Source of the DNA: an uncultured Paraburkholderia sp.
GTDB lineage: Bacteria; Pseudomonadota; Gammaproteobacteria; Burkholderiales; Burkholderiaceae
Length of the DNA: 64,000 bases
Assembly: GCA_940747215.1 (NCBI GenBank)
Contig: CALNWS010000019.1
Location: 476-64,475 of the forward strand
Direction: 5' to 3'
In this document: one piece after another, positions 14,201 through 48,828 of the stretch
Layout of the letters: every line of letters begins with the position of its first letter
Position numbering within the stretch: position 1 is the first letter of the stretch
Made by a program: the position numbers and the translations under genes
Notes under the pieces: model-generated
Seen by the model: only the letters and a program-made list of their open reading frames with translations
Databases searched by the model: none
What the model was told of the DNA's origin: nothing

Positions 14201-15616
14201 GTGAGTTTGTTACCGATCATTCTGTGTGGCGGTGTGGGATCGCGGCTCTGGCCGGTTTCGCGCGAGTCGCACCCGAAGCCGTTCATTCGTCTCGCAGACG
14301 GCGAAAGCCTGCTGCAAAAGGCGTTTTTGCGTGCAGTCGGTTTGCCCGGCGTGAAGGAAGTGCTGACGGTAACGAACCGCGATCTGTTCTTCAAGACCGA
14401 AGACGATTTTCGCGAAGTGAACGCGAAAGGCTGCGCCACCTCGTTCATTCTGGAACCGTTCGGACACAATACCGCAGCGGCAGTTGCTACGGCCGCGTTG
14501 CACGCGGCCAGGGTGCACGGCGACCAGACGGTCATGCTGGTGCTCGCCGCCGACCATCTGATCGCCGACCAGACCGCGTTCGCGTTGGCGGTGGCGGAAG
14601 CCACGAAGCTCGCGCAGGCGGGCAAGGTGGTCACGTTCGGCGTACATCCGGAAACGCCCGAAACCGGCTACGGCTACATCGAGGCGGACGGCGACAAGGT
14701 GGTCGCGTTCATCGAGAAGCCGTCGCTCGACAAGGCGCGCGAGTATCTGGCCTCGGGCCGCTTCGTCTGGAATTCGGGCATGTTCTGCTTCGCGGCGGGC
14801 ACGATCCTGAAGGAGATGCAGCAGCACTGTCCGGACATTCTCGCGGCGGCGGCGGACTGCATGGAGAAGTCGCCATCGGCGGCGGGCAAGGACGGCGCGC
14901 AGGTGCGGCTCGAACCGGCTTCGTTCGGCGCGGTACCGGAGCTCTCGTTCGATTACGCCGTGATGGAGAAGTGCCGGCAGGCGGCCGTGGTCCGCTGCAA
15001 CATCGGCTGGACGGACGTGGGTTCGTGGACGGCGCTGAGCGACCTGTCGCCGGCCGACAGCAGCGGCAATCGCGTGGAAGGCGAGGCATTACTCGTCGAC
15101 GTGAACAACTGCTACGTGCGTGGCGGCGAGCGGCTGATCGGCGCGGTGGGAATCAACAACCTGATCGTGATCGACACGCCCGACGCACTACTGGTGGCGA
15201 AGCGCGACCGCGCGCAGGACGTGAAGCAGATTTTCGCCGAACTCAAATCGCGCGGCCACGAAACCTACAAGGTGCATCGTAAGGTGCACCGGCCGTGGGG
15301 CACGTATTCGGTGCTCGAAGAAGGACCGCGTTTCAAGATCAAACGCATCGAGGTCAAGCCGGGCGCGAGTCTCAGTTTGCAGATGCATCATCACCGCAAC
15401 GAACATTGGGTGGTAGTGAGCGGCATGGCCAAGGTCGTCAACGGAGAGCGGGAATTCTTCGTGTCGACCAACGGATCGACCTACATCCCCGCGGGACATA
15501 AGCATTGCCTCGAAAATCCGGGCGTCGTCGAGCTCGTGATGATCGAAGTGCAAAGCGGCGAGTATTTGGGCGAAGACGACATCGTCCGCTTTGAAGACAT
15601 TTACGGACGTACTTGA
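14201..15616 (+). CDS. manC: Mannose-1-phosphate guanylyltransferase / mannose-6-phosphate isomerase (type II PMI-GMP)
   Basis: 471 aa from a GTG start. LPIILCGGVGSRLWPVSRESHPKPF... is the N-terminal nucleotidyltransferase domain. ...RPWGTYSVLEEGPRFKIKRIEVKPGASLSLQMHHHRNEHWVVVSG is the C-terminal cupin domain. Confidence 0.92.
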   Translation: MSLLPIILCGGVGSRLWPVSRESHPKPFIRLADGESLLQKAFLRAVGLPGVKEVLTVTNRDLFFKTEDDFREVNAKGCATSFILEPFGHNTAAAVATAALHAARVHGDQTVMLVLAADHLIADQTAFALAVAEATKLAQAGKVVTFGVHPETPETGYGYIEADGDKVVAFIEKPSLDKAREYLASGRFVWNSGMFCFAAGTILKEMQQHCPDILAAAADCMEKSPSAAGKDGAQVRLEPASFGAVPELSFDYAVMEKCRQAAVVRCNIGWTDVGSWTALSDLSPADSSGNRVEGEALLVDVNNCYVRGGERLIGAVGINNLIVIDTPDALLVAKRDRAQDVKQIFAELKSRGHETYKVHRKVHRPWGTYSVLEEGPRFKIKRIEVKPGASLSLQMHHHRNEHWVVVSGMAKVVNGEREFFVSTNGSTYIPAGHKHCLENPGVVELVMIEVQSGEYLGEDDIVRFEDIYGRT

Positions 15617-15617
15617 G

Positions 15618-16436
15618 ATGGATATCAGTTTTAGCAACGAGACCGAAAATCTGACGCAGCACACCGAAACCGACGACCTGCTCGTCGGCATGAAATCGGT
15701 GCGCGTGTGGGGCACGCTCGGCTGGCACGACATTCGGCAGCGTTATCGCCGTTCGGTGCTCGGGCCGTTCTGGTTCACGCTCAGCACGATCATCATGGTG
15801 GTGGTGCTTGGGGCGTTGTACTCCACGCTGCTGCATCAGAAGATTTCGAATTACCTGCCGTACCTCGCCGTGGGCCTTGTGGTGTGGGCATATCTCGCGG
15901 CAGTGGCGAACGAAGGCTGTCTCGCGTTCATCGGCGCGGCGTATCTGATCAAGCAGATCAGGCTGCCGCTCACCATTCACGTGTGCCGCATCGCGTGGCG
16001 CAATTTCGTGATCCTGCTGCACAGCCTGCCGGTGGTCGTGGTGCTGCTACTCGCATTCGGGCGCTGGCCCGGCTGGGAATTCCTGCTCGTGCCGTTCGCG
16101 CTCTTCATGCTGCTGCTGCACGGCGTGTGGCTCGGCGTGTGGCTCGGCGTGCTGTGCGCGCGCTTTCGCGACATTCCGCCTATCGTCACCAACCTGATCC
16201 AGGTCGTGTTCTTTTTCACGCCCGTCATGTGGTCGCCGGAAATTCTGAAAGACCGCGCGTGGGTCGCCGAATACAACCCGCTCTACCATCTGATCGAAAC
16301 GGTGCGCGCACCGCTCGCCGGCCGTCCGACTCACTGGGAGTCGTGGGCGTGGTCGATTGGTCTGTTAGTGGTCGGCTTTGTGTTCGCGCAACTGCTGATG
16401 AAACGTTTCCGTAATCGCGTTCCTTACTGGCTTTGA
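15618..16436 (+). CDS. wzm: ABC-2 type polysaccharide/O-antigen export permease
   Basis: 272 aa. WHDIRQRYRRSVLGPFWFTLS is the ABC-2 signature, followed by 6 hydrophobic segments. Sits immediately upstream of the ATPase. Contains an in-frame 12-bp tandem repeat (GVWLGVWLGV). Confidence 0.88.
   Translation: MDISFSNETENLTQHTETDDLLVGMKSVRVWGTLGWHDIRQRYRRSVLGPFWFTLSTIIMVVVLGALYSTLLHQKISNYLPYLAVGLVVWAYLAAVANEGCLAFIGAAYLIKQIRLPLTIHVCRIAWRNFVILLHSLPVVVVLLLAFGRWPGWEFLLVPFALFMLLLHGVWLGVWLGVLCARFRDIPPIVTNLIQVVFFFTPVMWSPEILKDRAWVAEYNPLYHLIETVRAPLAGRPTHWESWAWSIGLLVVGFVFAQLLMKRFRNRVPYWL
16121..16151 (+). repeat. 12-bp tandem repeat (about 2.6 copies of CGGCGTGTGGCT) inside wzm
   Basis: Read directly: cggcgtgtggct cggcgtgtggct cggcgtg. 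It is in frame and encodes GVWL-GVWL-GV within a predicted TM helix. Confidence 0.9.
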
Positions 16437-16440
16437 TATT

Positions 16441-17217
16441 GTGAGTTCTTCATCGATTATTGCTCGTAACATCTCGGTCGAATTTCCGATTTACGAGAAC
16501 TCCCATCGCTCACTGAAAAAAGCGGTGCTCAATCTCACGACGGGTGGCCGCATCGGCCAGGACGCCGGCCGCCATGCGATCGTCCGCGCGATCGACGACC
16601 TGAGCTTCAGCTTCACCGAAGGTACGCGCGTAGGTCTCGTCGGCCATAACGGCTCGGGCAAGACCACGCTGCTGCGCACGCTCTCGGGTGTCTATGCGCC
16701 GGTGCGCGGCGAACTCAAGGTGCAAGGCAAGATTGCCTCGCTCCTCGACGTCTCCATGGGCCTCGATCCGGACGCAACCGGCTTCGAGAACATCTATCTG
16801 CGCGGCATTCTCGACGGCCTGAAGCCGGCGCGTATCCGCAGCAAGATCGACGAGATCGCCGACTTCAGCGAACTGGGCGATTACCTGAATCTGCCGGTAC
16901 GCACGTATTCGAGCGGGATGATGCTGCGCCTCGCGTTCGCCATTTCCACGAGTGTCGAAGCCGACATCCTCATCATGGACGAGTGGCTGAGCGTGGGCGA
17001 CGCGGAGTTCAGCCTGAAGGCCGCGCAACGCCTCGAGAGTCTGGTGGGCAAGGCATCGGTGCTGGTGGTGGCGTCGCACGATCCGGCGCTGGTGGCGCGG
17101 GTGTGCAACCGCAAGATCCTGATGGAACAGGGCAAGATGATTTCCGACGAGCCTGTGTTACCGCCAGTTGAAAGCGAAGGTCAGCTCGTCAGCCAGTCTG
17201 CGCATTTGCCGCATTAA
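16441..17217 (+). CDS. wzt: Polysaccharide/O-antigen export ABC transporter ATP-binding protein (short form, no C-terminal carbohydrate-binding domain)
   Basis: 258 aa from a GTG start. Walker A GHNGSGKTT, signature YSSGMMLRLAF, Walker B ILIMDE. Only about 40 aa follow the NBD. Confidence 0.88.
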   Translation: MSSSSIIARNISVEFPIYENSHRSLKKAVLNLTTGGRIGQDAGRHAIVRAIDDLSFSFTEGTRVGLVGHNGSGKTTLLRTLSGVYAPVRGELKVQGKIASLLDVSMGLDPDATGFENIYLRGILDGLKPARIRSKIDEIADFSELGDYLNLPVRTYSSGMMLRLAFAISTSVEADILIMDEWLSVGDAEFSLKAAQRLESLVGKASVLVVASHDPALVARVCNRKILMEQGKMISDEPVLPPVESEGQLVSQSAHLPH

Positions 17218-24984: not shown

Positions 24985-25072
24985 GTCTGCTTGCCGTGGC
25001 GGGTGCTCCGATTGCGTTCGGAGCACCCCACGCGCAAGCGCCATTCATTCTGCTTTACTGACCGTACAGAGC

Positions 25073-25423: not shown

Positions 25424-25448
25424 AGCAGATTTACCGGCCCGGCGTCGA

Positions 25449-25482
25449 CATGGGCAGCTCTCAAGCATGGGCAGCTCTCAAG
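25449..25482 (+). repeat. Perfect 17-bp tandem duplication (CATGGGCAGCTCTCAAG x2) 11 nt upstream of the 835-aa ORF start
   Basis: Read directly: catgggcagctctcaag catgggcagctctcaag, in the 69-nt intergenic gap 25424-25492. Confidence 0.95.
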
Positions 25483-25492
25483 ACTACGGAAC

Positions 25493-34949: not shown

Positions 34950-35944
34950 CTACTTTTTCGTGGCGATGAGCGTAGTGGAACTGGCGAGCGCCAGGTTTTT
35001 CTCCGGGCTCAGATTCTTGACGAACGGGCGGTCGAGCAGCGCGGGCGCACCGTTCAGCAGGTCCGCAACCGTCAGCGTCTTGAAGTCGGCGAGCGCTTCT
35101 TCGTCGAGTCCTTCCGCCCAGTCGTTTGCAATCCACACCAGCGTCCAGACCGGCGACGTAGAGATCGGCACGTACACTTTGCTCACGTCGATCGACGGCG
35201 TTAACAGATTCAGAATGCCCTTGGCCGTCATGTTGTAGTAGTGGTGCGGAAGCCGTGCGTGGGTTGCGTGAGCGGCACCACGACGACGAGATCGCCGCCC
35301 GGCTTCAGCACACGCAGCAATTCTCTAGCGGCCGTGAACGGGTCTTTCACATGCTCCAGCACTTTGAGCGACAGCACGGCGTCGAACGAGTTGTCGACGA
35401 AGGGCAGCACTTCGCCCACGCCGCGAACGTCAGTGGACGGATACGCGCTGATCTTGAAGTTGACCACGTTGTCGAATATGAGCGGGTGGCTTCCCGCGCC
35501 GCAGTCGAGAATCAGATCGTCGCGGTGATGCTCGATCACGGCGAGCGCGTCGCCGTCGTACAGATTCTCAACGATCAGCTCGGAATCGTGGATGTCGAAC
35601 TTTGCCTTCAGTTCCGGGCTGAGAAAGTCGAACAGACGTCCGTAGTCGGCATAGGGAAGGGACTTGTCCAGCAGCGCTTCGATGCGGGCGCGGCACTTTT
35701 GCCGTTCCTCACGCGCGATGTCCACGGCCTGTTTGCGATGCGCTTCCTTGTGGCCGAACAGATCGAAATGCATGTGGCCCGATGCGATCGACCCGGCGCG
35801 TACGGCTTCGGCGACATCGGCGTTGGTGGCGAGATAGGCGCGCTCGCAGAAACTCAGTCGGGTGATGGACTCCAGCGACGGCGATGATTCGTGTGCGTTG
35901 CCGTCGTGTGTGCGCAGATCTTGCATAAGGCTCCTCGTCATCAA
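34950..35944 (-). pseudogene. SAM-dependent methyltransferase (Methyltransf_11-like), single frameshift
   Basis: The 238-aa ORF reads ...LILDCGAGSHPL...FDAVLSLKVLEHVKDPFTAARELLRVLKPGGDLVVVVPLTQPTHGF and then runs into a stop. Restoring one C/G in the run at about 35246-35249 gives FPHHYYNMTAKGILNLL.... That joins it to the following 93-aa ORF (34950-35231), which has no independent RBS. Confidence 0.7.
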
Positions 35945-36011: not shown

Positions 36012-37055
36012 TCAGGCCGCGAGGATGTGCCGCCACTCTGCGTCGCTCGCGCGTTGCAGGACGCTTTCCGCGTGGCTCACGTATGCCGGATTCACGGCGT
36101 TCAGGCTCGTTGCCTTGTCGAGGCGCGCGGCGATGTTCTCCGCCCATACGGTGAGGTCCGCCGCCGTATCGAATACACAGTCGGCGGGGCATATTTCCTG
36201 AGCCGCCGTGCCGCCGCGCACGAACACCGGCTTGCCGAAGTGCATGGCTTCGAGAACCGGCACGCAGAAACCCTCGTGACGGCTCATCGCGAGCAGGGCG
36301 CTCGCGCCGTCGTAGCAGTCGAACAGATCGGCGTCGTCGAGCATGCCTTTGAAGTCGACCTGTTCGAGCACGCCGAGCGCACGCGCACGGTTGATCAGGA
36401 ACTTCAGATAGTCGTAGTTCGGCGCGCTGCCGACGATGGTGAGCGTTGCGTCGATGTCGTGCTGCTTCAGCAGCGCAAGCAGGTCGATGGCGTCGTCGAT
36501 ACGCTTGTGCGGCACCACGCGGCCGACTATCAGCAGATTCGGTTCGCGCAGCGGCGCGTGCTTTTGCGCGGGCGCGAGCACGAACGCCACCATGTCGGCG
36601 AAGATCGGCGGAATTACCTTGACTTCCGGCATGTTCGCGACGTCCGCGAGACTCTGCGCGGTTTGCTGCGAATTCGCGATCACGGCGTCGAAGCCCGCGA
36701 GCAGCGGCAACTGCCTGAGCGCCGCCTCGCACAGGTCCGCGATTCGCGGCTCGAACTCGCGCAGCAGATGCGGATCGGTCACGCCGTGGAAATAGCAGAC
36801 CTTTTTGCACGGCAACGCGAGAAAGCGTTCGAGATTCGCGTCGTAAATCGAGTAGCTCAGAAGAACAATGTCGTCTTTGTGCGTGCTCGTGAACACCTCT
36901 TCGAGCGGACGAACGCCCGGCGTACTGAAGTCGTAGCTTTTAGCGTACACCTCGGTCTGGATGCCGAGGCGTTCAGCCGCGCGGGCGATGCCGAGGCAGT
37001 GGTTGCCCACTGCGTCGCCTGCAAAGATATCCAGAGCACACACATGGAGGATCAT
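36012..37055 (-). CDS. Glycosyltransferase family 4 (GT-B)
   Basis: MILHVCALDIFAGDAVGNHCLGIAR... and ...SRHEGFCVPVLEAMHFGKPVFVRGGTAAQEI (EX7E). Its ATG overlaps the stop of the upstream 914-aa gene (ATGA). Confidence 0.8.
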   Translation of the reverse strand: MILHVCALDIFAGDAVGNHCLGIARAAERLGIQTEVYAKSYDFSTPGVRPLEEVFTSTHKDDIVLLSYSIYDANLERFLALPCKKVCYFHGVTDPHLLREFEPRIADLCEAALRQLPLLAGFDAVIANSQQTAQSLADVANMPEVKVIPPIFADMVAFVLAPAQKHAPLREPNLLIVGRVVPHKRIDDAIDLLALLKQHDIDATLTIVGSAPNYDYLKFLINRARALGVLEQVDFKGMLDDADLFDCYDGASALLAMSRHEGFCVPVLEAMHFGKPVFVRGGTAAQEICPADCVFDTAADLTVWAENIAARLDKATSLNAVNPAYVSHAESVLQRASDAEWRHILAA

Positions 37056-39796
37056 TTCGCTCTTGCCTCGGCTATGGCCGTCAGGCACCGCTTGTAGGCG
37101 CGTGACACCGCTTCGATCGAATAATCGCGCACGATGCGCGCCTTGCCTGCCTGCGCGATCCGTTCGCGCAATGGCGCGTCCTCGATCATGCGCTTGAGTT
37201 GCTCGGCCGCGATGGATACGTCCGGGTCGCACCAGTACTGGCTTTCGGAGAACAGATAGTCGCCCGCACGCAGCGGCACCAGCTCGCCGTCGACGAGGAA
37301 CGCCGTGTCCGGATCGCAGAAGTCGACGTTGCCGGAGAAGTTCGTGGCGACCACCGGCTGGCCGAGCGCCATCGCTTCCGCGATCACGCGGCCGAAGCCT
37401 TCGCTACGATGCAGCGAAATGTAGGCGTCGCAGCAGGCCATGAAGTCGATCGAATCCTGGCGGCTCAGCCGCTCGGACACGATATGGATGCGGCTGTCAC
37501 CGGTCGCCAGTTCGCGCACCGCGCGCCACACCGGATCGTCGTCGCGCACGTTCATCGCCTTGATGACGAGGCCAACACCCGGCGAATGCTCGCCGAACGC
37601 CTGCTTGAACGCCTGCACGCCCGCAAGCGGATTCTTCCGACTCAGCCAAGAGTTGTTGTCGAACATCAGATAGAATAGGAACTCGTTCGACGGCAGGCCG
37701 AAGCGCTCGCGGCGCGGATCGACCGGCTGCGGCACGTCGACGGTCATCGGCATATGATGGACGGGCGTGTCGCCGAGACGGCTATAGACGCTCTGCACGA
37801 ATTTGCTCTGCGCCCAGATCTCGTCGACTATTTCGTAGATCTTGCCGAACGCACTGGGCCAGTGAGGTAGTTCCCACGGCCACGCGCCGATCTTGTGCGT
37901 GGGCGCGTCGATCATGCGGCGGCCGCCTTCGAGCGCGAGCCGCACCATTTCCGGCGGCGGCAGGCAGAACACGCTGACCTGATACACAAGGTCGTTGCAC
38001 AGCAGATGATTGACCGACGTGTCGATGCGCGGCGGTCCGCTCATCGGCGCGTTGATGAGCGCGATGTCGAAGCCTGCGTGCTGCATGGCGTACGCCGCCA
38101 TGCGCGCGTCTTCGCCGAGACCCAGCACGCCTTGCGGGAAACCGACGATGTTCACGCCGAACGGATGCGCCTCGATCGTCGCCGGTTCGTTGCGGATTTT
38201 GGTGATCGCACGCTCCATCAACGCAGACGGTACGACGCGCAGATGCCGGAACTCCGAATACTCGTTGCGCCCGGTGGTGTGCCACCACTCGATGAACGTC
38301 AGCGCACCGCGTTCGGTGCCGATGTCGAAGGCGCTCACGAGGTCGGGGCGGCTTTCGCGTAGCTGGAGCAGCAGGCGCGGGAGCGGCATCGCGACGTTGG
38401 GCAGGACTTCGGTGTGCAGCAGATCGCTCAGGCTTTCGTGGAGTTTCCACTTCAGGCTCGAGTATTCCTGCTGGCCCGCGCCCATCCACCATTGCATCGC
38501 GTTCAGGCGGCCACGAAACGTGTCGAGGTCGAAGAGCGATTGCAGATCGGCGCGGCTTTGCACCAGCCGCGGCAGAAATTCCGGGACGCGGAACGTGCCG
38601 CGCCTGTCGCCGTCGTCGAGCCTGTTGAGGCGGTCGAGAATGCCGGTGGTCTGCCAGTCGAGCCGGCGGTACTCCTGGCGGCCGGGGCCCATCCACCATT
38701 GCATTGCATTGAGACGGCCGCGGAACGTGTCGAGGTCGAAGAGCGCCTGCAGATCAGGCCGGCTTTGCAGGAGAAGCGGCAGGAAATTCGGCGCCGCGAA
38801 CAGGCCGCGCTCGTCGCCGTCGTCGAGCTGGTTGAGCCACGTGAAGGTCTCGGCGGTCGCCCATTCGAGCCGCGGATATTCCCGCCGGCCGTGCCCGTCC
38901 CACCAGAGCAGGATCGAGAAGCGGCCGGTGGCGCTGTTCAGGTCGATATTGCACTTCAGGTCGGGCCGGCTGTCGACGAGCGGCGTGAGGAAGTGCGGAA
39001 TGCTGATCAGCGCGCCGCCTTCGTCGTGCACGAGTTCGTTCAGGTGCTGGATCGCGGTGGAGGTGCGCCAGATCAGGCGCGGGTATTCGAACTTGCCGTG
39101 TTCGGCCCACCAGACGAGTGCGCCGAACGAGCCCGAGAACGTCGTCATGTCGAGGCTCGCGCGCAGATCGGGGCGGCTCGTCACGAGCAGATTCAGAAAG
39201 GCCGGAATGCCGATCGATTCGTCGTTCTCCGCACTGCCTAGTTCGTTCAGGTTGTCCCATACCGAATTCGGTGACCACGTGATGCGCGGATACTCGAACT
39301 GGCCATGCATTTCCCACCAGCTGAGTGCGCCCAGTTGGCCCGAGAACAGCGAGAGATCGATATGTGCGCGCAGATCGGCGCGTGAACTTACCAGCAGCGA
39401 CAGGAAGCGCGGCAGTTGCGCACGGGTCGGCTCGATCGCGAGATCGCCCTTGACTAGCGCGTCGAGCATCTGCGTTTCGTTCAGGATGTCGGGCGTGGTG
39501 CCGGCGAGCCAGAAACTGATGGCGCGCGGGAACCGTTCGATCAGCGTTTGTGCATCCAGTTGCGCGACATATTCGATGTCGGCGTCGCGCAGCACCCATT
39601 CGAAATCCGGATAGTCGCGCTTGCCGTACGCCTTCCACCAGAAGTAGAGCGTGACGCGGCCTTCGATGCTCTGATGTTCGAAGGCAGCAAGGTCCAGCCT
39701 GAACTTGAGCAGGAAATAGATTGCGTTCGGAAGTGCAAATAATGCAGTGGGAGACGGATGACGAGCTTCCGTCGCCCATTCTTGTGTCAAAGGCAT
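37052..39796 (-). CDS. Large glycosyltransferase: N-terminal 69-aa tandem-repeat domain plus a C-terminal GT4 (GT-B) catalytic domain (914 aa)
   Basis: Uninterrupted ORF. The C-terminal about 370 aa read FGVNIVGFPQGVLGLGEDAR...HRSEGFGRVIAEAMALGQPVVATNFSGNVDF (EX7E). The N-terminal about 540 aa consist of repeats with consensus [ILV]PxFLxxLVxSRxDLxxxxDLxTFxGxxxAxxWWxxxGxxEYPxLxW. Confidence 0.8.
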   Translation of the reverse strand: MPLTQEWATEARHPSPTALFALPNAIYFLLKFRLDLAAFEHQSIEGRVTLYFWWKAYGKRDYPDFEWVLRDADIEYVAQLDAQTLIERFPRAISFWLAGTTPDILNETQMLDALVKGDLAIEPTRAQLPRFLSLLVSSRADLRAHIDLSLFSGQLGALSWWEMHGQFEYPRITWSPNSVWDNLNELGSAENDESIGIPAFLNLLVTSRPDLRASLDMTTFSGSFGALVWWAEHGKFEYPRLIWRTSTAIQHLNELVHDEGGALISIPHFLTPLVDSRPDLKCNIDLNSATGRFSILLWWDGHGRREYPRLEWATAETFTWLNQLDDGDERGLFAAPNFLPLLLQSRPDLQALFDLDTFRGRLNAMQWWMGPGRQEYRRLDWQTTGILDRLNRLDDGDRRGTFRVPEFLPRLVQSRADLQSLFDLDTFRGRLNAMQWWMGAGQQEYSSLKWKLHESLSDLLHTEVLPNVAMPLPRLLLQLRESRPDLVSAFDIGTERGALTFIEWWHTTGRNEYSEFRHLRVVPSALMERAITKIRNEPATIEAHPFGVNIVGFPQGVLGLGEDARMAAYAMQHAGFDIALINAPMSGPPRIDTSVNHLLCNDLVYQVSVFCLPPPEMVRLALEGGRRMIDAPTHKIGAWPWELPHWPSAFGKIYEIVDEIWAQSKFVQSVYSRLGDTPVHHMPMTVDVPQPVDPRRERFGLPSNEFLFYLMFDNNSWLSRKNPLAGVQAFKQAFGEHSPGVGLVIKAMNVRDDDPVWRAVRELATGDSRIHIVSERLSRQDSIDFMACCDAYISLHRSEGFGRVIAEAMALGQPVVATNFSGNVDFCDPDTAFLVDGELVPLRAGDYLFSESQYWCDPDVSIAAEQLKRMIEDAPLRERIAQAGKARIVRDYSIEAVSRAYKRCLTAIAEARAK
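38177..39415 (-). repeat. Six tandem 207-nt (69-aa) coding repeats inside the 914-aa glycosyltransferase gene, plus a degenerate copy up to about 39739
   Basis: Repeat units start at aa 128, 197, 266, 335, 404 and 472 (LPRFL, IPAFL, IPHFL, APNFL, VPEFL, LPRLL). Units 4 and 5 share LFDLDTFRGRLNAMQWWMG(P/A)G(R/Q)QEY almost verbatim. Confidence 0.85.
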
Positions 39797-39800
39797 GGTG

Positions 39801-41957
39801 TTATTGAGCTTTCGACAGACGCGGCTTCATCGTGATGACGAACTCGGTCGAGTCGATAGAAAGATTCGGTGAGTAGAACGGGTCGTTCCACAGAGCATCG
39901 CCCCAGCGCTTCTTCACGAAGTCGATTTCGTTGACGAAGCGAGCCATTTTTTCGGGCGTGTCTTCATAGCCGCGCGACGCGGATTCGTGATGGTACAGCT
40001 CGGCGAACGGCGTCCACACGTTGCGATAGCCCGCTTCGCGCACGCGCAGGCAGAAGTCAACGTCGTTGAACGCGATCACGAGATCTTCGTCGAGCCCGTT
40101 CACTTCACGATAGATACTCGTGCGAATCACGAGGCAGGCGGCCGTCACGGCGCTCACCGCGCTGCGCAATGCCGCGCGGCAGAAATAGCCCGGCGCGTAG
40201 CGCGGCAGGAATTTGTGACCGTGACCGGCAAGGCCGCCCATGCCGAGATAGACGCCCGCGTGCTGAATGGTGTCGTCGGGATAGAGCAGCTTGGCGCCCA
40301 CTGCGCCGACGTTGTCCTGCAACGCGATCGAAACGAGTTCGGTCAGCCATTCCGGCGTAATTACCTCGATGTCGTTGTTGAGCAGGCAAACGAATTCGGC
40401 CTTGCTCGCGAGCGCGATGCGATTATTCAGCGCGGGATAGTTGAACGGCGAATCGTCGCGCACCACACGAATGCGTTCGTCGCCTTCATAGCTCTTGAAG
40501 AGCTCGAAGATTTCCTGCTTCACCGAACCGTTGTCGATGATCGTGATCAGGTAGTTCTGATACGTGCTGCGTTCCCTGATCGAATCGACGCACTGTTTGA
40601 CGAGACCCGCGCCGTCGCGTGTCGGAATGATGATCTCGACGCTCGGCTCCTGCTCCGGTAGATCGTAGACGACGCGCTGGTATATCGCGGCGCCGTCGGC
40701 GGACCACACGTGCGCGGCGATGTGGCTGCGGTCCAGGTGTTCCTGCACCGCGCGCGCCGCGGCGATCACGGCGTACGGCTTTGCGTCCGCGCTCGACGCC
40801 GTGCTTTCCGGCAGGACGCGCCAGTGATACAGCACGCGCGGAATGTGGCGGATCGATTGCGGGCCGGCCGCTTCCATTATGCGCAACGCGAGATCGTAGT
40901 CCTGCGAGCCTTCCATGCCGATGCGGAAACCGCCGATCTGCCGCAGCACGGCGGTGCGGTACACGCCGAAGTGCGAAACCATGTTCTGACCGAGGAACAG
41001 GTCGTAGTTGAAATCGCACTTGAAATACGGCTCGTAGCGCGTGCCTTCGACCGTGATCTTGTCTTCGTCGCTATAGATCACCGCGACGTCCGGGTTTTGC
41101 TGCAGCAGTTCCGCCACATAGTAGAGCGCGAGCGGATACAGTTCGTCGTCGTGATCGAGCAGGCCCGTGAATTTGCCCGTGGCCAGTTCCAGCGCGCTGT
41201 TGCTCGCCGCGCTGATGTGGCCGTTCGCCTCGCGATACACGACCTTGATGCGCGGATCGCGCACCATGTATTCGTCGAGCGTGGCCTTCACCTGCGGCTG
41301 CGTGGACTTGTCGTCGGCGATGCACAGTTCCCAGTTCGGATACACTTGGGCGATGACGGAATCCAGTGCCTTGCGCAGATACTCTTCCGGCGAGTTGTAC
41401 GTCGGCATGACGAGGCTGATGAGCGGCGCGTTGCTCCAGTTTTTCGCGGCTTCGGCGAGGCTCGCGTATTCGTCGGCCGGCACTTCGTTGACCGTGATCC
41501 AGTTCTCGTACGTGACGGCAAGTTCGGCGTCCGGATTCGCAGCAGCCTCGGCCGCGGCGAGTGCCGCTTCGCTGGCTTCGCCGAATGGACGCGAGTTTTC
41601 GTCGACCGTCAGCGAGAAATCGTTCAGCGAGAACGGACCCGGAAACGCGATCGGATCGAAGCGCACGCCGCGCAGCGTCCACGGAAACGAGATGATCTGA
41701 TCGACCTTGCCGTTCGCGTCGGGGCGCAGCCACACGGCGTCTTGTTCCGACATGCCTTCGCCCTTGTCGACGTACAGCATGCACGGCGTTTTCGGCATCT
41801 CGCCGGTGGTTAGCGTGAACGACAGATGGACGGTGCGACCACGCATCTGCTCCCAGTCCGCGATGGCGAACTGCGGGTCGTTCGTCGTCGCGTTCCATTG
41901 GTAGCCGGAATCCGGCTGTGCTTCAACATTGATGATGGGTCGCAGTTCAAGTTTCAT
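39801..41957 (-). CDS. Dual-domain GT2 glycosyltransferase with an extra about 180-aa N-terminal domain (718 aa); candidate chain-extending enzyme
   Basis: Two GT-A modules. The first: ISLVMPTYNSPEEYLRKALDSV...LDHDDEL...YSDED. The second: VEIIIPTRDGAGLVKQCVDSI...LLNNDIEV...QHAG. Uninterrupted. Confidence 0.85.
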   Translation of the reverse strand: MKLELRPIINVEAQPDSGYQWNATTNDPQFAIADWEQMRGRTVHLSFTLTTGEMPKTPCMLYVDKGEGMSEQDAVWLRPDANGKVDQIISFPWTLRGVRFDPIAFPGPFSLNDFSLTVDENSRPFGEASEAALAAAEAAANPDAELAVTYENWITVNEVPADEYASLAEAAKNWSNAPLISLVMPTYNSPEEYLRKALDSVIAQVYPNWELCIADDKSTQPQVKATLDEYMVRDPRIKVVYREANGHISAASNSALELATGKFTGLLDHDDELYPLALYYVAELLQQNPDVAVIYSDEDKITVEGTRYEPYFKCDFNYDLFLGQNMVSHFGVYRTAVLRQIGGFRIGMEGSQDYDLALRIMEAAGPQSIRHIPRVLYHWRVLPESTASSADAKPYAVIAAARAVQEHLDRSHIAAHVWSADGAAIYQRVVYDLPEQEPSVEIIIPTRDGAGLVKQCVDSIRERSTYQNYLITIIDNGSVKQEIFELFKSYEGDERIRVVRDDSPFNYPALNNRIALASKAEFVCLLNNDIEVITPEWLTELVSIALQDNVGAVGAKLLYPDDTIQHAGVYLGMGGLAGHGHKFLPRYAPGYFCRAALRSAVSAVTAACLVIRTSIYREVNGLDEDLVIAFNDVDFCLRVREAGYRNVWTPFAELYHHESASRGYEDTPEKMARFVNEIDFVKKRWGDALWNDPFYSPNLSIDSTEFVITMKPRLSKAQ

Positions 41958-42034: not shown

Positions 42035-43009
42035 TCATCTCGTCGACAGAAACGTATACAGTTCTTTCAGCGGAGAAAGTACGGCTTCCCAGCACAGGTT
42101 GCGCTCACGCTCAGCGCCGCCGCGCTCGAGTGTGAGCGCCTCGCGGATGGACTGCGCGATGCTGGCGGGATCTTGCGGATTGAGATAGGCCACCTGATCC
42201 GCGAAATATTCGCGCGTGGAGCCGACTTCGGTCGCGGCAATGCGTGCACCGGCGGCGTAGGCTTCGAGCGCGGCGAGACCGGGTGTTTCGAGGATGCTCG
42301 GCAGGCAGAACGCCTCGCAGGCGGCATACGCCGAGCGCAGCAGTTCCGACTCGTGCGGCAGCGGGCCGAGGTACTTGACCTGGCTGCCGCACGCTTCGAG
42401 GCATGCACGCGCGTAGGCCGGATCGCGCTGATGGCCGATCAGCACGAGCGGCAACTCCGGCATGGACTTCATGGCCTCGACGAGCGCAAGCTGGTTCTTG
42501 CGCGGCTCGATGTTGCCGATGTTCAGCAGGAACGGTCCGCGAATATCGAAGTACTCGCGAAACAGTTCCGCCGAGACCGGCTCGTAAAACATTTCTTCGA
42601 CACCGTTATAGACCGTGGTGAACTTCTCGCGCGGCAGCTCGAGCACTTGCGCGAGCGTGTCGCATTCGATGTCCGAGTTCGCGACCACGCGGTCGGCGAG
42701 CGAGAACTGATGGCGGATTTCGTCGATGGGATAAAGGTGCTTCGTGTCCTCCGTGACCCACAGGCTCGACGAGACGACGAGTGGCAGCCCGAGCTGTTTG
42801 ACGAAGTTGCAGAAGTGGACCGAGCCGCCGACGCACGAGAAGAAGTGCACGACATCGTGCTCGAGAAAGCGCGAATTCCACGGGTCGAACAGATCGACCT
42901 CGACGCCGTGCGCGGGAAGATGTTTGCGATACGCAAGCAACTGAATCTCTCCGCCGCCGGGTGTGTGGAAAGCCATGGGGTACGTGGCAAACAGCACTTT
43001 CACTTTCAT
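42035..43009 (-). CDS. Glycosyltransferase family 4 (GT-B)
   Basis: MKVKVLFATYPMAFHTPGGGEIQLL... and ...CEAFCLPSILETPGLAALEAYAAGARIAATEVGSTREYF (EX7E). 324 aa. Confidence 0.8.
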   Translation of the reverse strand: MKVKVLFATYPMAFHTPGGGEIQLLAYRKHLPAHGVEVDLFDPWNSRFLEHDVVHFFSCVGGSVHFCNFVKQLGLPLVVSSSLWVTEDTKHLYPIDEIRHQFSLADRVVANSDIECDTLAQVLELPREKFTTVYNGVEEMFYEPVSAELFREYFDIRGPFLLNIGNIEPRKNQLALVEAMKSMPELPLVLIGHQRDPAYARACLEACGSQVKYLGPLPHESELLRSAYAACEAFCLPSILETPGLAALEAYAAGARIAATEVGSTREYFADQVAYLNPQDPASIAQSIREALTLERGGAERERNLCWEAVLSPLKELYTFLSTR

Positions 43010-43284
43010 GTATGGGAGCTTGGATCCTCGAGCTCTCGAACTTTCCGGCAACGCTTGCCATGGAGATAACGCGCTTACAATATGCGGCCACAACACACGG
43101 CGGCATGCCGCCCTCTACCCTACAGATGCCATATTGTACCGTGCTTCGTCTGCCATCCCGCTCGTCTCCGTGGGCGTATCGCCAGTTCCGTGCCCGTGGA
43201 CGCGCGGCATGAGCGGTGTGCGCTCCGCCCGTCGGGACGCCACAGCGGCAGGCGTCGATTCGTCCGTCCAGAGTGAATGAAGAC

Positions 43285-44383: not shown

Positions 44384-45415
44384 ATGTCGATTGTGCCGCT
44401 TGCCCTGCTTTCCGCTCATTCCGCTATCCCGTTGTTCCTGTGGGGTGCCGTCGCGCTGTGTGCCTGCGCGGCGATTCTGTGGGCGCTGCTCGGAACCGGC
44501 CTCGCCTGGCGCCTCGCCACCGACATCCCCAATGACCGCTCGTTGCACACACGGCCCACGCCGCGCGTCGGCGGCTGGGGCATCGTGCCGGTGGCGGTGC
44601 TGCTGATCGGGCTCGCGGAGCCCGCGCTGTGGCTTCCCGCGCTCGCGGCGGCGCTGCTCGCGGCGCTTTCGCAGATCGACGACCGACGCGGCCTGCCGGC
44701 GCGCGTGCGCTTCGGCGGCCATGCGGCGGCGGTGGCGCTGCTGGTGGCGGTGTATCCCGCGGACGTGCCGTGGTGGGCGCTCGCATGCATGGCGGTTTTA
44801 CTCGTCTGGCTGGTCAATTTATACAATTTCATGGACGGCTCGGACGGACTCGCCGGCGGCATGGCGCTCTTCGGCTTCGCAGGGTATGCGATCGCCGCGT
44901 CGATTTCGAGCCGGCCCGACCCTGCGCTCGCCCTTGCCTGCGCGATCGTGGCGGGCGCGGCGGCGGGCTTCCTCCTGTTCAATTTTCATCCGGCGCGTAT
45001 TTTTCTCGGCGACGCCGGTTCTATCCCGCTCGGCTTTCTCGCCGGCGCGCTGGGTTACTGGGGCTGGCGCGAGAGCATCTGGCCAGTCTGGTTTCCCGCA
45101 GTGTGCTTTTCGGCGTTCATCGGCGATGCTTCGGTGACGCTGCTCAAACGTCTGCTTCGCGGAGAAAAGTTCTGGCAGGCGCATCGCGAACACTACTATC
45201 AAAGACTGGTGCAGTCGGGCTTCGGACACGCCCCGACCACTTGGGTTTGGTATTTGGTCATGGTCGCGGGCATAATGCTTGCTTTGTGGGCAATGGAAGT
45301 TGCCGTGCTGTATCAATGGCTGGTTGTGGTCGCGTGGGCTGTCGTACTCGTCGTCGCCGGGCTGTGCATTGATCGCCGCTGGCGGCACCATCTGTCCCGT
45401 TCCAGGCAATCCTGA
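44384..45415 (+). CDS. Polyprenyl-phosphate N-acetylhexosamine-1-phosphate transferase (GT4-family MraY/WecA/WbpL; WbiH-like)
   Basis: 343 aa, polytopic. DIPNDRSLHTRPTPRVGG, NLYNFMDGSDGLAGG, FLGDAGSIPLGF. Confidence 0.85.
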   Translation: MSIVPLALLSAHSAIPLFLWGAVALCACAAILWALLGTGLAWRLATDIPNDRSLHTRPTPRVGGWGIVPVAVLLIGLAEPALWLPALAAALLAALSQIDDRRGLPARVRFGGHAAAVALLVAVYPADVPWWALACMAVLLVWLVNLYNFMDGSDGLAGGMALFGFAGYAIAASISSRPDPALALACAIVAGAAAGFLLFNFHPARIFLGDAGSIPLGFLAGALGYWGWRESIWPVWFPAVCFSAFIGDASVTLLKRLLRGEKFWQAHREHYYQRLVQSGFGHAPTTWVWYLVMVAGIMLALWAMEVAVLYQWLVVVAWAVVLVVAGLCIDRRWRHHLSRSRQS

Positions 45416-47424: not shown

Positions 47425-48522
47425 TCAGCGACGCGACCTCCGCACCACCATCCAGCGAGGCGACTTGAACCGCACGATGCTCACGTAAAGCCAGACATAC
47501 GTCGCGGCAAACACCATCACGAAGCAGAACAGATGCAGCGTGTGCCGCCAGAACAGCGTGGCGGGCACCACGGCGATCAGACACAGCAGCCACAGATACG
47601 GCGACGTGAGCGAGTTGCGGCGCGTCAGTTCGCGCGCGGTGCGTGTGCCAACCGCCCAGTGCATCAGACGCTTGTAGACGAGCATGTGCAGATGCACGCC
47701 GTCGGGAATACCCGGCGACATGCCGCGAATGAATTTTTTCCGGTAGATCGAGAAACACGTCTCGAAGATCGGATACATTAAGAGCAGAATCGGATACCAC
47801 GCCGACACGTCGCGATTGCGCATCACGAGCATGATCGACAGTTCGGCGAGCATGAAGCCGATGAAATAGGCACCGCCGTCACCGAGAAAAATTAGACCGG
47901 CCGGGAAATTCCAGATGAAGAAGCCGAGCACCGCGCCCATCATCATGAACGACGCCGACAGCACGATCGGATCGGACACTTGGAACGCCACGTAGGCGAG
48001 CGAGGCGAACATCATGAAGGCGACCATCGACGCGAGGCCGTTGAAGCCGTCGATGATATTGATCGCGTTGGCGAGCGCGGTGACCGCGAGCACCGTGACC
48101 GCACACGAAATCACCGCGTACGAGAGCAGGAAATCGAGCGGCGGCACGCTGATGCGCGTGACGGCGATGTTCAGCATGAAGTACGCGAGCGCGGCGGCGG
48201 CCATCGTGCAGACGAACCGCACGAGTGGCGACACGCGCTTGGTCAGATCTTCGATGAGGCCAGAACCGAACGCGGGCATGCCGCACGCGATCAGCCCGAG
48301 AATGCCGTCCGACACGGCCGGATACGCGTGATGCAGTTGCACGGCGGAGACAATCAGCCCGAGCAGAATTCCCGTGCCGCCGATGCGCGGCACCGGACGC
48401 GCGTGAAACTTCTGTACGCCGCCCAGATCGGTGTCAGCGAATTTTTCATGCAGATGCGCGTAGCGCACGATCAACAGCGTGATCAGCAGTGAAACGAGAA
48501 AGCCGAGCGCAAAACTAAGCAT
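47425..48522 (-). CDS. Second polyprenyl-phosphate HexNAc-1-P transferase (WecA-like, GT4 family)
   Basis: MLSFALGFLVSLLITLLIV...KFHARPVPRIGG...NIIDGFNGLASM...FLGDGGAYFIGF. The ORF is open to 48573, but the ATG at 48522 fits the first TM helix. Confidence 0.83.
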   Translation of the reverse strand: MLSFALGFLVSLLITLLIVRYAHLHEKFADTDLGGVQKFHARPVPRIGGTGILLGLIVSAVQLHHAYPAVSDGILGLIACGMPAFGSGLIEDLTKRVSPLVRFVCTMAAAALAYFMLNIAVTRISVPPLDFLLSYAVISCAVTVLAVTALANAINIIDGFNGLASMVAFMMFASLAYVAFQVSDPIVLSASFMMMGAVLGFFIWNFPAGLIFLGDGGAYFIGFMLAELSIMLVMRNRDVSAWYPILLLMYPIFETCFSIYRKKFIRGMSPGIPDGVHLHMLVYKRLMHWAVGTRTARELTRRNSLTSPYLWLLCLIAVVPATLFWRHTLHLFCFVMVFAATYVWLYVSIVRFKSPRWMVVRRSRR

Positions 48523-48828
48523 GAAAGTGGGCCTGAGTGAAGAAGCCGAATTATACAAACGAACGCCCGACACCCGGCAAAGCAGCCTTGTTGCGCGATG
48601 CGCCGCGAATCCCAGATAGTGGCGAAAATCGCCCGCAAACGCCCGCCAGTCATGGATTTCACCTATCTAGCACGGCCTTTTACGGACCGTTAACCTGGTT
48701 GCGGCGAAGTGTAGGTCACGCGCAACAAGAGAAAGCGCCGGCGAGGAATGGCACCTGATGAATCGGAAGGCACGCGAGGGCCCGGCATCACGCCGTGCCA
48801 CCGTTCGACCGCACGTTCCGGAGACCCC

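What the first reader, a model, noticed from the sequence alone, without database searches (positions are those of the whole stretch)
38177..39739. Six (plus one or two degenerate) 69-aa tandem repeats form the N-terminal 540 aa of a GT4 glycosyltransferase
Repeat units start every 69 aa (207 nt), at residues 128, 197, 266, 335, 404 and 472. The consensus is PxFLxxLVxSRxDL-x5-DLxTFxG-x5-WW-x3-G-x2-EYPxLxW.

Units 4 and 5 are near-identical over about 40 residues (LFDLDTFRGRLNAMQWWMG.G.QEY), which indicates recent duplication. The array is in frame and uninterrupted.

A long modular non-catalytic arm on a polymerising GT in a Wzm/Wzt system recalls molecular-ruler or scaffold domains that set O-antigen chain length. 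Copy-number change would be a simple way to tune this. I cannot assign the repeat to a named family.
Basis: partly seen in the sequence, partly recalled or inferred. Interest (0 to 1): 0.7.

Follow-up and report, generated by a model that had tools for sequence, protein, structure and literature searches.

The report
Copy-number-variable helical arm on a glycosyltransferase
A sugar-adding enzyme in a Paraburkholderia O-antigen gene cluster carries a long arm of seven copies of an undescribed 69-residue helical module; the copy number differs (3 to 10) between close relatives, so the arm may act as an adjustable spacer in cell-surface polysaccharide assembly.

Summary
The gene at window 37052-39796 (minus strand, 914 aa) encodes seven in-frame 69-aa units (aa 17-85 and 124-536), a 38-aa non-repeat spacer, a ~22-aa low-confidence linker and a canonical GT4 catalytic domain.

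The unit matches nothing in Pfam, NCBIfam or the PDB, by sequence or by fold. AlphaFold2 models each unit as four helices that stack into a confident all-helical array. It is not a coiled coil.

At least 119 cluster representatives share this layout, with repeats always N-terminal to the same GT4 subfamily and 1-11 full-length units (up to 15 matched stretches). Syntenic Burkholderiaceae loci hold 4-10 units. Two 21-kb loci that are 87-89% identical differ structurally only by three units. Block duplications arose independently, and the array is under purifying selection.

In some relatives the array sits between another enzyme-like domain and the GT4. One of these enzyme families carries a single unit.

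The best reading is a length-adjustable spacer or docking arm within an ABC-transporter-dependent polysaccharide assembly complex. A true chain-length ruler is plausible but unproven. Against it, Wzt lacks a carbohydrate-binding domain, the arm carries no terminator domain, and the arm joins the GT4 through a linker modelled with low confidence. This is a new variant of a known kind and is readily testable.

The parts
37052..39796 (-). Whole gene: 914-aa repeat-arm GT4 glycosyltransferase. It is identical to P0001, annotated 'FIG00455500 hypothetical protein, uncultured Paraburkholderia sp.'
39749..39796 (-). N-terminal cap, aa 1-16 (MPLTQEWATEARHPSP), conserved in orthologues
39542..39748 (-). 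Unit 1 (aa 17-85). It is the most divergent unit from the others (34 bits when left out) but the best conserved unit among orthologues (0.65 mean identity).
39428..39541 (-). Spacer, aa 86-123. Modelled as three short helices, with no sequence similarity to the unit. Present in all close homologues.
39221..39427 (-). Unit 2 (aa 124-192)
39014..39220 (-). Unit 3 (aa 193-261)
38807..39013 (-). Unit 4 (aa 262-330)
38600..38806 (-). Unit 5 (aa 331-399). Paralogue of unit 6; both match unit 5 of six-unit orthologues.
38393..38599 (-). Unit 6 (aa 400-468). The extra unit relative to six-unit orthologues.
38234..38395 (-). Unit 7 core (aa 468-521). The last unit is divergent (47 bits when left out) and lacks the fourth helix.
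38162..38233 (-). Linker, aa 522-545. pLDDT is below 50 for aa 522-543 in the full-length model, and the sequence is variable.
37055..38161 (-). GT4 (GT-B, retaining type) catalytic domain, aa 546-914, containing HRSEGFGRVIAEAM (E799-x7-E807)
39801..41957 (-). Upstream operon partner: a 718-aa protein with two GT2 domains and an unassigned 170-aa N-terminal domain. Its stop codon lies 4 nt before the repeat gene's ATG. The gene pair is conserved in Burkholderiaceae and Hydrogenophaga.
42035..43096 (-). First gene of the minus-strand operon: a 353-aa GT4, syntenic in relatives
36012..37055 (-). Downstream GT4 (347 aa). Its ATG overlaps the repeat gene's stop codon (ATGA).
35228..35944 (-). Class-I methyltransferase (238 aa) at the end of the operon. 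It is not conserved in most related loci.
15591..17217 (+). wzm (ABC-2 permease) and wzt (258 aa, nucleotide-binding domain only, no carbohydrate-binding domain)

Best explanation
The N-terminal 520 aa form a non-catalytic arm built from tandem copies of a previously unannotated helical module. Each unit is 69 aa, with a conserved core of about 50 aa, and is modelled as strand, helix A, short helix B, long helix C, helix D, strand. The units stack into one continuous all-helical array. This array carries a conserved, non-repeat 'head' (aa 1-123) at its far end and is tied by a ~22-aa linker to a canonical GT4 glycosyltransferase.

Proposed mechanism (inferred): the arm is a length-adjustable spacer or tether. 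It plugs the GT4 module into the cytoplasmic O-antigen assembly complex of a Wzm/Wzt pathway. It fixes how far the GT4 active site sits from whatever the head or units bind, most likely a partner enzyme such as the two-domain GT2 encoded 4 nt upstream. Unequal recombination between units adds or removes whole units or blocks, which changes that distance. If the GT4 or its partner acts at a defined stage of chain growth, this would shift glycan length or the point of modification.

Shown: the repeat, its predicted fold class, the GT4 identity, copy-number variation, purifying selection, and the gene and domain associations.
Inferred: the rod-like shape, partner binding, and any effect on chain length.
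For: 1. Seven significant in-frame units.
2. The AF2 model of aa 1-560 has pLDDT 87 and pTM 0.71, with four helices per unit and strand bridges between neighbouring units. The only Foldseek neighbours are generic HEAT/ARM solenoids, none significant.
3. Layout is conserved. All 119 retrieved representatives that carry the homologous GT4 have the units N-terminal to it, with 1-11 full units and up to 15 matched stretches.
4. Length is the variable property. Species genomes have 3-10 units. GT4 domains 92-96% identical carry 7, 9 or 10 units. L011 and L014 are collinear over 21 kb at 87-89% identity, and the only large indel is 618-621 nt, equal to three units.
5. Duplications are independent and often in blocks. 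In the window, units 5 and 6 are 66% identical. In B. multivorans, units 3 and 4 are 85% identical. In L016, units 4-6 match 7-9 at 76, 95 and 81%. In L037, units 5-6 match 7-8 at 82 and 89%.
6. Internal units are interchangeable while the ends are special. Unit 1 is the best conserved among orthologues, and the head and last unit are always kept.
7. The arm is functional protein. dN/dS is 0.11-0.35, against 0.07-0.10 for the GT4 domain.
8. In relatives the array links two enzymes. There are fusions of [365-aa group A domain]-[3-15 units]-[GT4] and [330-aa group B, weakly GT8-like domain]-[units]-[GT4]. Stand-alone group B genes sit directly upstream of units-GT4 genes. A class-I methyltransferase gene directly precedes units-GT4 in 10 distant loci.
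9. The gene is tightly packed with its GT neighbours: a 4-nt gap upstream and an ATGA overlap downstream.
10. Synteny with wzm-wzt holds in Rouxiella, Rahnella and two Cellvibrionales genomes (L067, L070); the Cupriavidus and Polynucleobacter loci show the same downstream genes, with wzm/wzt outside the fetched stretch.
11. Precedents exist: coiled-coil spacers set chain length in WbdD and WbbB (PMC11231755), and a TPR array docks TviD to the GT4 polymerase TviE (PMC8760489).
Against: - No experiment and no model coordinates were available, so arm length and rigidity were not measured.
- The arm-GT4 linker (aa 522-543) has pLDDT below 50 and variable sequence, which weakens any rigid-ruler reading.
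- Wzt lacks the carbohydrate-binding domain typical of cap-terminated, ruler-controlled systems.
- The distal end of this protein has no catalytic domain, and no group A or group B homologue exists in the window.
- The unit occurs singly at the C-terminus of 73 of 86 full-length group B proteins. A single unit cannot be a spacer, so the unit probably has a binding function of its own.
- Some family members lie in 2-3-gene loci with no wzm or wzt within 8 kb.
- The partner is unknown.
- The enzyme assignments of groups A and B are weak. The GT8 hit is E = 0.0019 in one of six members, and PDB 3tzt scores E = 0.22.
Confidence: 0.45

Rival explanations
1. A pure protein-protein scaffold, working like a TPR array. 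The units and head recruit other enzymes or the transporter into a complex. Copy number changes capacity or avidity, and there is no distance-measuring role.
For: - The TviD TPR array binds the GT4 polymerase TviE and mediates membrane association in an ABC-transporter-dependent system (PMC8760489).
- The single-unit group B enzymes encoded next to, or fused with, units-GT4 proteins suggest unit-mediated docking.
- The conserved head suggests a specific partner.
Against: - Internal units duplicate and delete freely at different positions and are the least conserved part. That is unexpected if each unit bound a distinct partner.
- No other protein in the window carries a unit.
- TPR, SLR, HEAT and ARM models do not match.
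Confidence: 0.25
2. A multivalent glycan-binding array. Each unit binds a stretch of the growing or acceptor polysaccharide, or its undecaprenyl-diphosphate end. This would give the GT4 processivity or sense polymer length. A single unit on other enzymes would serve as a substrate-binding module.
For: - Aromatic and charged positions are invariant in every unit and also in single-copy versions (R-P-D-L, G-R, W-W/F, E-Y).
- The unit is found almost only on polysaccharide-type enzymes.
- Interchangeable units would suit a repetitive ligand.
- By analogy (own knowledge), the TPR superhelix of O-GlcNAc transferase binds the acceptor.
Against: - There is no similarity to any carbohydrate-binding module or wall-binding repeat by sequence or fold.
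- All-helical sugar-binding modules are unusual.
- The conserved residues are equally explained as helix caps and hydrophobic core.
- Exposure of these residues could not be checked because no coordinates were returned.
Confidence: 0.15
3. An oligomerisation, membrane-association or autoregulatory domain. The arm would dimerise the enzyme, hold it at the inner membrane, or occlude the active site.
For: - Known terminator and polymerase proteins use non-catalytic helical regions for membrane association and oligomerisation.
- The TviD C-terminal helical region is needed for membrane localisation.
Against: - No transmembrane or obvious amphipathic segment was noted in the arm by eye; no predictor was run.
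- A role in oligomerisation or membrane binding does not explain a 1-15-fold range in copy number.
- The monomer model is already confident (pTM 0.71).
- Not tested further.
Confidence: 0.1
4. A selectively neutral repeat expansion with no function.
For: Copy number varies a great deal, and the arm evolves faster than the GT4 domain.
Against: - dN/dS is 0.11-0.35, which indicates purifying selection.
- Ten positions are invariant across units.
- The reading frame is always kept.
- The architecture is conserved from Burkholderiales to Enterobacterales, Methylococcales and Cellvibrionales.
- The predicted fold is confident.
Confidence: 0.03

Closest known systems
Coiled-coil molecular rulers of ABC-transporter-dependent O-antigen assembly (WbdD of E. 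coli O9a / K. pneumoniae O3; WbbB of K. pneumoniae O12 / Raoultella; ORF6-O7 and ORF7-O4 of K. pneumoniae)
   Same: - A long non-catalytic helical element on an O-antigen assembly protein in a Wzm/Wzt pathway.
- In relatives of the window protein the element separates two enzyme-like domains, as the coiled coil separates terminator from polymerase.
- Its length is the evolutionarily variable property.
   Different: - It is not a coiled coil. It is a tandem array of 69-aa four-helix units.
- It is modelled confidently as a monomer (oligomeric state not tested), whereas coiled coils form dimers or trimers.
- The window protein has no terminating enzyme at the distal end.
- Wzt has no carbohydrate-binding domain.
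- Length changes in quantised 69-aa steps by unit duplication.
- No experimental link to chain length exists.
TPR scaffolds in cytoplasmic polysaccharide assembly (TviD and VexE of the Vi antigen system)
   Same: A helical repeat array attached to a polysaccharide-modifying enzyme that docks to a GT4 enzyme and to the membrane in an ABC-transporter-dependent system (PMC8760489).
   Different: - The unit here is 69 aa with four helices, not a 34-aa helix pair.
- No TPR or SLR model matches at E up to 1.
- Here the array is on the GT4 itself and its copy number is highly variable.
O-GlcNAc transferase (GT41): an N-terminal TPR superhelix followed by a GT-B catalytic domain (own knowledge, not tested here)
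   Same: The same overall layout: an N-terminal alpha-solenoid followed by a GT-B fold glycosyltransferase. In OGT the solenoid binds the acceptor.
   Different: A different repeat family, a different GT family (GT4 against GT41) and a different acceptor type. No detectable homology in the arm.
PglH, a GT4 with an internal 'ruler helix' that counts three GalNAc additions (mentioned in PMC8760489)
   Same: A GT4 enzyme in which a non-catalytic helical feature limits product length.
   Different: PglH uses a single helix inside the catalytic domain and counts three residues. Here there is a separate 520-aa modular arm.

Membership tests
CAZy GT4 / Pfam Glycos_transf_1 (retaining GT-B glycosyltransferases) | Match to the family profile above its curated cut-off | tested here: met
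   PF00534 scores 44.1 bits against a cut-off of 26.4. PF13692 scores 41 bits against 27 (aa 759-886).
CAZy GT4 / Pfam Glycos_transf_1 (retaining GT-B glycosyltransferases) | GT-B fold with two Rossmann-like halves | tested here: met
   The AF2 model of aa 546-914 has alternating strands and helices. Foldseek gives E 1e-14 to 1e-10 and target-normalised TM 0.65-0.72 to GlgM, BshA, HepE and PimB' (WaaG 0.61-0.65).
CAZy GT4 / Pfam Glycos_transf_1 (retaining GT-B glycosyltransferases) | E-x7-E motif in the C-terminal half | tested here: met
   HRSEGFGRVIAEAM is present. E799 and E807 are invariant in the 44-sequence alignment.
CAZy GT4 / Pfam Glycos_transf_1 (retaining GT-B glycosyltransferases) | Glycosyl transfer activity, donor and acceptor, and whether the enzyme is polymerising | not testable with these tools
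   The best NCBIfam hits are all far below their cut-offs. No specificity can be inferred.
Coiled-coil molecular ruler proteins (WbdD / WbbB type) | Extended coiled coil | tested here: not met
   AF2 gives four short helices per 69-aa unit. A crude heptad scan of 28 cluster ORFs reaches at most 1.4 of 2. No dedicated coiled-coil predictor was available.
Coiled-coil molecular ruler proteins (WbdD / WbbB type) | Chain-terminating enzyme domain at the end distal to the polymerase | tested here: not met
   aa 1-123 have no family hit and are helical. Some relatives do carry an enzyme-like domain there, but its activity is unknown.
Coiled-coil molecular ruler proteins (WbdD / WbbB type) | Wzt with a C-terminal carbohydrate-binding domain that recognises the terminal cap | tested here: not met
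   Wzt is 258 aa and aligns to model positions 4-228 of a 244-residue NBD-only model. The Wzt genes in L067 and L070 are also about 273 aa.
Coiled-coil molecular ruler proteins (WbdD / WbbB type) | Spacer length determines the modal glycan chain length | not testable with these tools
   This needs LPS profiles of natural or engineered copy-number variants.
TPR / SEL1 / HEAT / ARM / ankyrin helical repeats | Match to a repeat-family profile, and the characteristic unit length (TPR 34 aa, ankyrin 33 aa, HEAT/ARM about 40 aa) | tested here: not met
   No Pfam hit in aa 1-545 at E up to 1. The unit is 69 aa with four helices. Foldseek hits to HEAT/ARM proteins have E of 0.14 or more and TM of 0.16 or less. 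The ankyrin proteins match only profile positions 21-42.
Carbohydrate-binding modules / cell-wall-binding repeats | Sequence or fold similarity to a known CBM or wall-binding repeat | tested here: not met
   There is no Pfam, NCBIfam or PDB sequence hit and no PDB or BFVD fold hit.

The most novel reading that the evidence does not exclude
The 69-aa unit founds a new class of alpha-solenoid 'ruler and docking' module. Arrays of it would act as quantised, recombination-tunable spacers that set polysaccharide chain length, or the position of a terminal modification, in Wzm/Wzt systems lacking both a coiled-coil protein and a Wzt carbohydrate-binding domain. Enzymes carrying a single unit would plug into these arrays.
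Probability: 0.2. Interest if true: 0.85.

Novelty: new variant of a known kind. Interest (0 to 1): 0.6.

Why it matters
How ABC-transporter-dependent systems set polysaccharide length is understood only for coiled-coil terminator proteins paired with a cap-reading Wzt. For systems that have neither, like this one, the mechanism is much less clear.

A modular arm whose length changes in 69-aa steps, on a GT4 enzyme conserved across several proteobacterial orders, is a concrete and testable candidate for a second solution. At the least, it is a new assembly scaffold.

Nature has already made the variants. Loci with 7, 9 and 10 units are otherwise collinear and come from cultured Paraburkholderia type strains, so a simple comparison of LPS ladders could support or reject the idea.

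The unit is also an unannotated domain family, with 383 cluster representatives at E of 1e-3 or better. It is linked to two further unannotated enzyme-like families, and all three deserve a family definition.

Tried and rejected
- Pfam and NCBIfam scans of the whole protein at E up to 1 gave nothing in aa 1-545.
- A PDB sequence search with the unit profile gave only chance-level hits: mitochondrial bL9 and Rho GTPases, E of 0.09 or more.
- Foldseek of the arm model against the PDB and BFVD returned no match below E = 0.1.
- A six-frame scan of the window with the unit profile, and with an iterated family profile, found no unit outside this gene. So there is no unit-bearing partner in the window.
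- The stretch at aa 86-123 was tested as a degenerate unit and rejected.
- The profile hits with 10-13 short stretches (for example P0098) are ankyrin proteins that match only positions 21-42. They are unrelated.
- tblastn of the group A and group B N-terminal domains against the window found nothing.
- Attempts to name group A and group B gave only a weak GT8 signal for B (E 0.0019 and 0.22) and nothing for A.
- The methyltransferase of the window (35228-35944) is not homologous to the methyltransferase that precedes units-GT4 genes in distant loci. It is conserved in only one related locus.
- The methyltransferase-to-units-GT4 pairs were tested for fusion. They are separate ORFs.
- Literature searches for the FIG identifier, and for repeat-bearing GT4 enzymes in O-antigen clusters, found no description of this repeat. 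The B. cenocepacia / B. multivorans hybrid-locus paper concerns different genes.
- Arm length in angstroms could not be measured, because the structure tool returns no coordinates.


Full report
**1. What is at the coordinates**

The finding lies inside one minus-strand ORF, window 37052..39796, which encodes 914 aa. It is 100% identical to a database protein named only 'FIG00455500 hypothetical protein [uncultured Paraburkholderia sp.]'. GC3 is 0.82 against GC2 of 0.44, which marks this frame as the coding one in a 62% GC window.

WW dipeptides sit at aa 53, 160, 229, 298, 367, 436 and 504. The seven 69-aa segments around them align with ten invariant positions and the consensus PxFLxxLVxSRPDL..FDLxTFxGR...WW...G..EYPRLxW.

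The repeat is far beyond chance. In leave-one-out tests each unit scores 34-93 bits against a profile of the other six. Of 500 shuffled units, the 458 that returned a score reached at most 8.2 bits. Tandem Repeats Finder sees the 207-nt period in the DNA. The stretch at aa 86-123 is not a unit.

So the array is seven units: one divergent N-terminal unit, a 38-aa spacer, then six contiguous units.

The two most similar units (aa 331-399 and 400-468) share 34 of 41 core residues. They are only 64% identical in DNA, with 52% identity at third codon positions. This is the youngest duplication in the array but not a recent one.

**2. The rest of the protein and the neighbourhood**

Residues 546-914 are a canonical GT4 domain.
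- Pfam PF00534 and PF13692 match above their cut-offs.
- The E-x7-E motif has both glutamates invariant.
- The fold matches GlgM, BshA, HepE and PimB' with TM 0.65-0.72 and WaaG with TM 0.61-0.65.

Nothing reveals the donor, the acceptor, or whether the enzyme polymerises.

The gene is the third of a tightly packed minus-strand operon:
- GT4 (42035-43096)
- a protein with two GT2 domains (39801-41957), whose stop codon lies 4 nt before the repeat gene's ATG
- the repeat-GT4 gene
- GT4 (36012-37055), with an ATGA stop/start overlap
- a methyltransferase (35228-35944)

Divergent from this operon lie an epimerase, a WecA-like transferase and a WbpM/WbiI-like dehydratase.

Upstream on the plus strand are rmlB, rmlA, manC, wzm and wzt, then two unassigned genes, further GTs and a DUF7657 protein. 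This is the layout of a Burkholderia-type O-antigen locus that uses an ABC transporter.

Wzt is 258 aa and consists of a nucleotide-binding domain only. A crude heptad scan found no extended coiled coil in any of 28 cluster ORFs.

**3. What the unit is**

The arm matches no Pfam or NCBIfam model at E up to 1. It matches no PDB sequence.

AlphaFold2, run on aa 1-560 with a 32-sequence alignment, gives pLDDT 87.1 and pTM 0.71. Each unit is modelled as helices of about 9, 6, 18 and 8 residues, and short strand bridges tie each unit to the next. A pTM of 0.71 for a 560-residue repeat protein implies a defined superstructure rather than beads on a string. That is an inference, because no coordinates were returned.

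Foldseek finds only generic HEAT/ARM solenoids, at E of 0.14 or more and TM of 0.16 or less. Nothing is found among viral models.

In the full-length model (pLDDT 86.7, pTM 0.64), the arm and the GT4 domain are joined by a segment with pLDDT below 50, at aa 522-543.

**4. The family**

A profile of the seven units was searched against 1.84 billion cluster representatives. It finds 383 proteins at E of 1e-3 or better, with 2-15 matched stretches.

Of the proteins retrieved, 119 carry both full-length units and a C-terminal domain homologous to this particular GT4. In all 119 the units are N-terminal to it. Copy number runs from 1 to 11 full-length matches, and up to 15 with an iterated profile.

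A scan of one genome per species returned 80 loci. They come from Paraburkholderia, Burkholderia, Cupriavidus, Trinickia, Polynucleobacter, Hydrogenophaga, Limnohabitans, Rouxiella, Rahnella, Methylococcales, Cellvibrionales, Azospirillum and others. Well-matched loci carry 3-10 units.

Synteny of GT4, two-domain GT2, repeat-GT4 and GT4 is conserved in Burkholderiaceae. In Rouxiella, Rahnella and two Cellvibrionales genomes (L067, L070), wzt (and in the latter two wzm) lies contiguous on one strand with the two unassigned genes, the GT4s, the two-domain GT2 (absent in the Cellvibrionales genomes) and repeat-GT4. The Cupriavidus and Polynucleobacter loci show the same order from the two unassigned genes onward, with wzm/wzt outside the fetched stretch. 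This supports a functional link to the transporter.

**5. Copy number is the fast-evolving property**

- Homologue lengths step by about 69 aa.
- GT4 domains that are 92-96% identical sit behind arrays of 7, 9 or 10 units.
- The 21-kb loci of Paraburkholderia sp. SG-MS1 (7 units) and P. ultramafica (10 units) are collinear at 87-89% nucleotide identity. The only large indel is 618-621 nt, which is three units, inside the array.

Expansions are independent and often occur in blocks:
- The window's extra unit is a copy of ancestral unit 5.
- B. multivorans duplicated unit 3, and the copies are 85% identical.
- P. susongensis duplicated the block of units 4-6 (76, 95 and 81% identity).
- P. podalyriae duplicated units 5-6 (82 and 89% identity).

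The arm is nevertheless constrained. dN/dS is 0.11-0.20 for unit 1 plus spacer and 0.16-0.35 for internal units, against 0.07-0.10 for the GT4 domain. Among six-unit orthologues, unit 1 is the best conserved part of the arm (0.65). Conservation falls to 0.42 toward the last unit, while the GT4 domain stands at 0.75.

**6. Clues from other architectures**

Some relatives carry about 350 extra N-terminal residues in front of the units. These fall into two unannotated families.
- Group A: P0031, P0047, P0066 and P0159.
- Group B: P0115, P0116, P0128, P0131, P0140, P0147 and P0158.

Group B has a DxD-like YLDPDI motif. Its only matches are weak GT8 similarities, at E = 0.0019 in one of six members and E = 0.22 to PDB 3tzt. 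Its enzymatic nature is therefore a lead and not a result.

Group B is also a large stand-alone family, with 621 hits at E of 1e-5 or better and no Pfam domain. Its C-terminus carries one copy of the unit core (RPDLQxxFxLxxxxGRxxFxxWFxxxGxREYG) in 73 of 86 full-length members. In two loci examined, such a gene lies directly upstream of a units-GT4 gene.

In ten distant loci, a class-I methyltransferase gene directly precedes a units-GT4 gene. It is a separate ORF and carries no unit.

Other rare contexts are GT4+GT2+units, RgpF+GT2+units, and a subtilase.

Two conclusions follow. First, the array repeatedly connects the GT4 to a second enzyme, either by fusion or by adjacency. Second, the unit is a mobile module that can work in single copy, so it probably binds something in its own right.

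**7. Interpretation**

I commit to an adjustable spacer and docking arm (confidence 0.45). The head and units hold the GT4 module in a multi-enzyme assembly complex at a distance set by unit number. Unit duplication and deletion retune that distance.

This is functionally analogous to the coiled-coil rulers of WbdD and WbbB, where a spacer separates terminator from polymerase (PMC11231755). It also resembles the TPR docking of TviD to the GT4 polymerase TviE (PMC8760489).

A strict chain-length ruler remains unproven and faces real objections:
- the linker is modelled with low confidence (possibly flexible);
- this protein has no distal catalytic domain;
- Wzt has no carbohydrate-binding domain;
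- the unit occurs in single copy elsewhere;
- some family members lie in loci with no wzm or wzt within 8 kb.

The rivals are a pure scaffold (0.25), a multivalent glycan-binding array (0.15), oligomerisation or membrane association (0.10), and neutral expansion (0.03, disfavoured by dN/dS and conservation).

**8. Novelty and verdict**

The GT4 domain and the cluster type are ordinary. The arm is not. It is a repeat family absent from Pfam, NCBIfam and the PDB. It has a new unit architecture and a striking quantised copy-number polymorphism. It sits in an O-antigen system that lacks both hallmarks of the known length-control mechanism. No paper in the searchable library describes it.

I rate it a new variant of a known kind (non-catalytic helical spacer or scaffold on polysaccharide assembly enzymes), with interest 0.6. 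Its interpretation is partly supported.

Noticed in passing
window 17295-20251 (+): Two genes lie directly after wzt. One is a 460-aa PaaK-like adenylate-forming enzyme (NCBIfam DVU_1553 / PaaK, E 1e-20 to 1e-15, below cut-offs). The other is a 525-aa protein with no family hit; by eye it has NodB-like D-x-D and H-x-x-x-H motifs. The pair is conserved after wzt, or ahead of the same GT genes where wzt lies outside the fetched stretch, in Rouxiella, Rahnella, Cupriavidus, Polynucleobacter and two Cellvibrionales genomes (L067, L070). This may indicate a non-sugar (acyl) modification of the polymer.
   Followed up: partly
window 23932-28000 (+): A GT2 similar to polyprenyl-phosphate glycosyl synthases (PpgS / AglJ-like) is followed by a small ORF and an 835-aa DUF7657+DUF7654 protein. 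This looks like a three-component system for periplasmic addition of a side-branch sugar.
   Followed up: no
window 41448-41957 (-), aa 1-170 of the two-domain GT2 protein: The two-GT2-domain protein encoded just upstream of the repeat gene has a 170-aa N-terminal domain with no family hit. By eye its composition is strand-rich and CBM-like. It is a candidate partner for the arm.
   Followed up: no
window 35228-35944 (-): The methyltransferase has a 140-aa N-terminal extension containing 'YLATNADVAEAVRAGSIASGHMHFDLFGHKEAHRK'. From my own recollection, not checked here, this motif is common in polysaccharide-cluster proteins. Among 80 related loci the gene is conserved only in L035.
   Followed up: partly
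related proteins P0116, P0131, P0158 and others, and P0178-P0297; loci L081 8001-9194 and L082 8001-9236: The 'group B' family has 621 or more homologues of 400-460 aa, all annotated hypothetical with no Pfam domain. Conserved motifs are FTIxSxNY, YLDPDI, NLGF and DQRW, and there is only a weak GT8 signal. Members usually end in one copy of the repeat unit and are encoded next to, or fused with, units-GT4 proteins.
   Followed up: partly
related proteins P0031, P0047, P0066 and P0159 (aa 1-365): The 'group A' domain (MKLLTLFVRYG...IIVDNALP...GGDNxRREFSGW) is fused in front of 3-15 units and the GT4. It has no Pfam or PDB match at all.
   Followed up: partly
loci L052, L054, L057, L058, L063, L064, L065, L068, L072 and L073: In distant relatives (Telluria, Limnohabitans, Comamonas, Aquabacterium, Methylomonas and other MAGs), a class-I methyltransferase gene ends within a few bases of, or overlaps, the start of a GT4 gene carrying 3-4 units.
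   Followed up: partly
window 44384-45415 (+) and 47425-48573 (-): Two separate WecA/MraY-family (PF00953) initiating transferase genes flank the WbpM-like gene.
   Followed up: no
window 38010-39614 (+): A 534-aa antisense ORF overlaps the repeat region. Its GC1 of 0.44, GC2 of 0.65 and GC3 of 0.83 are as expected for a shadow of the real gene in a high-GC genome and not for a coding frame.
   Followed up: yes
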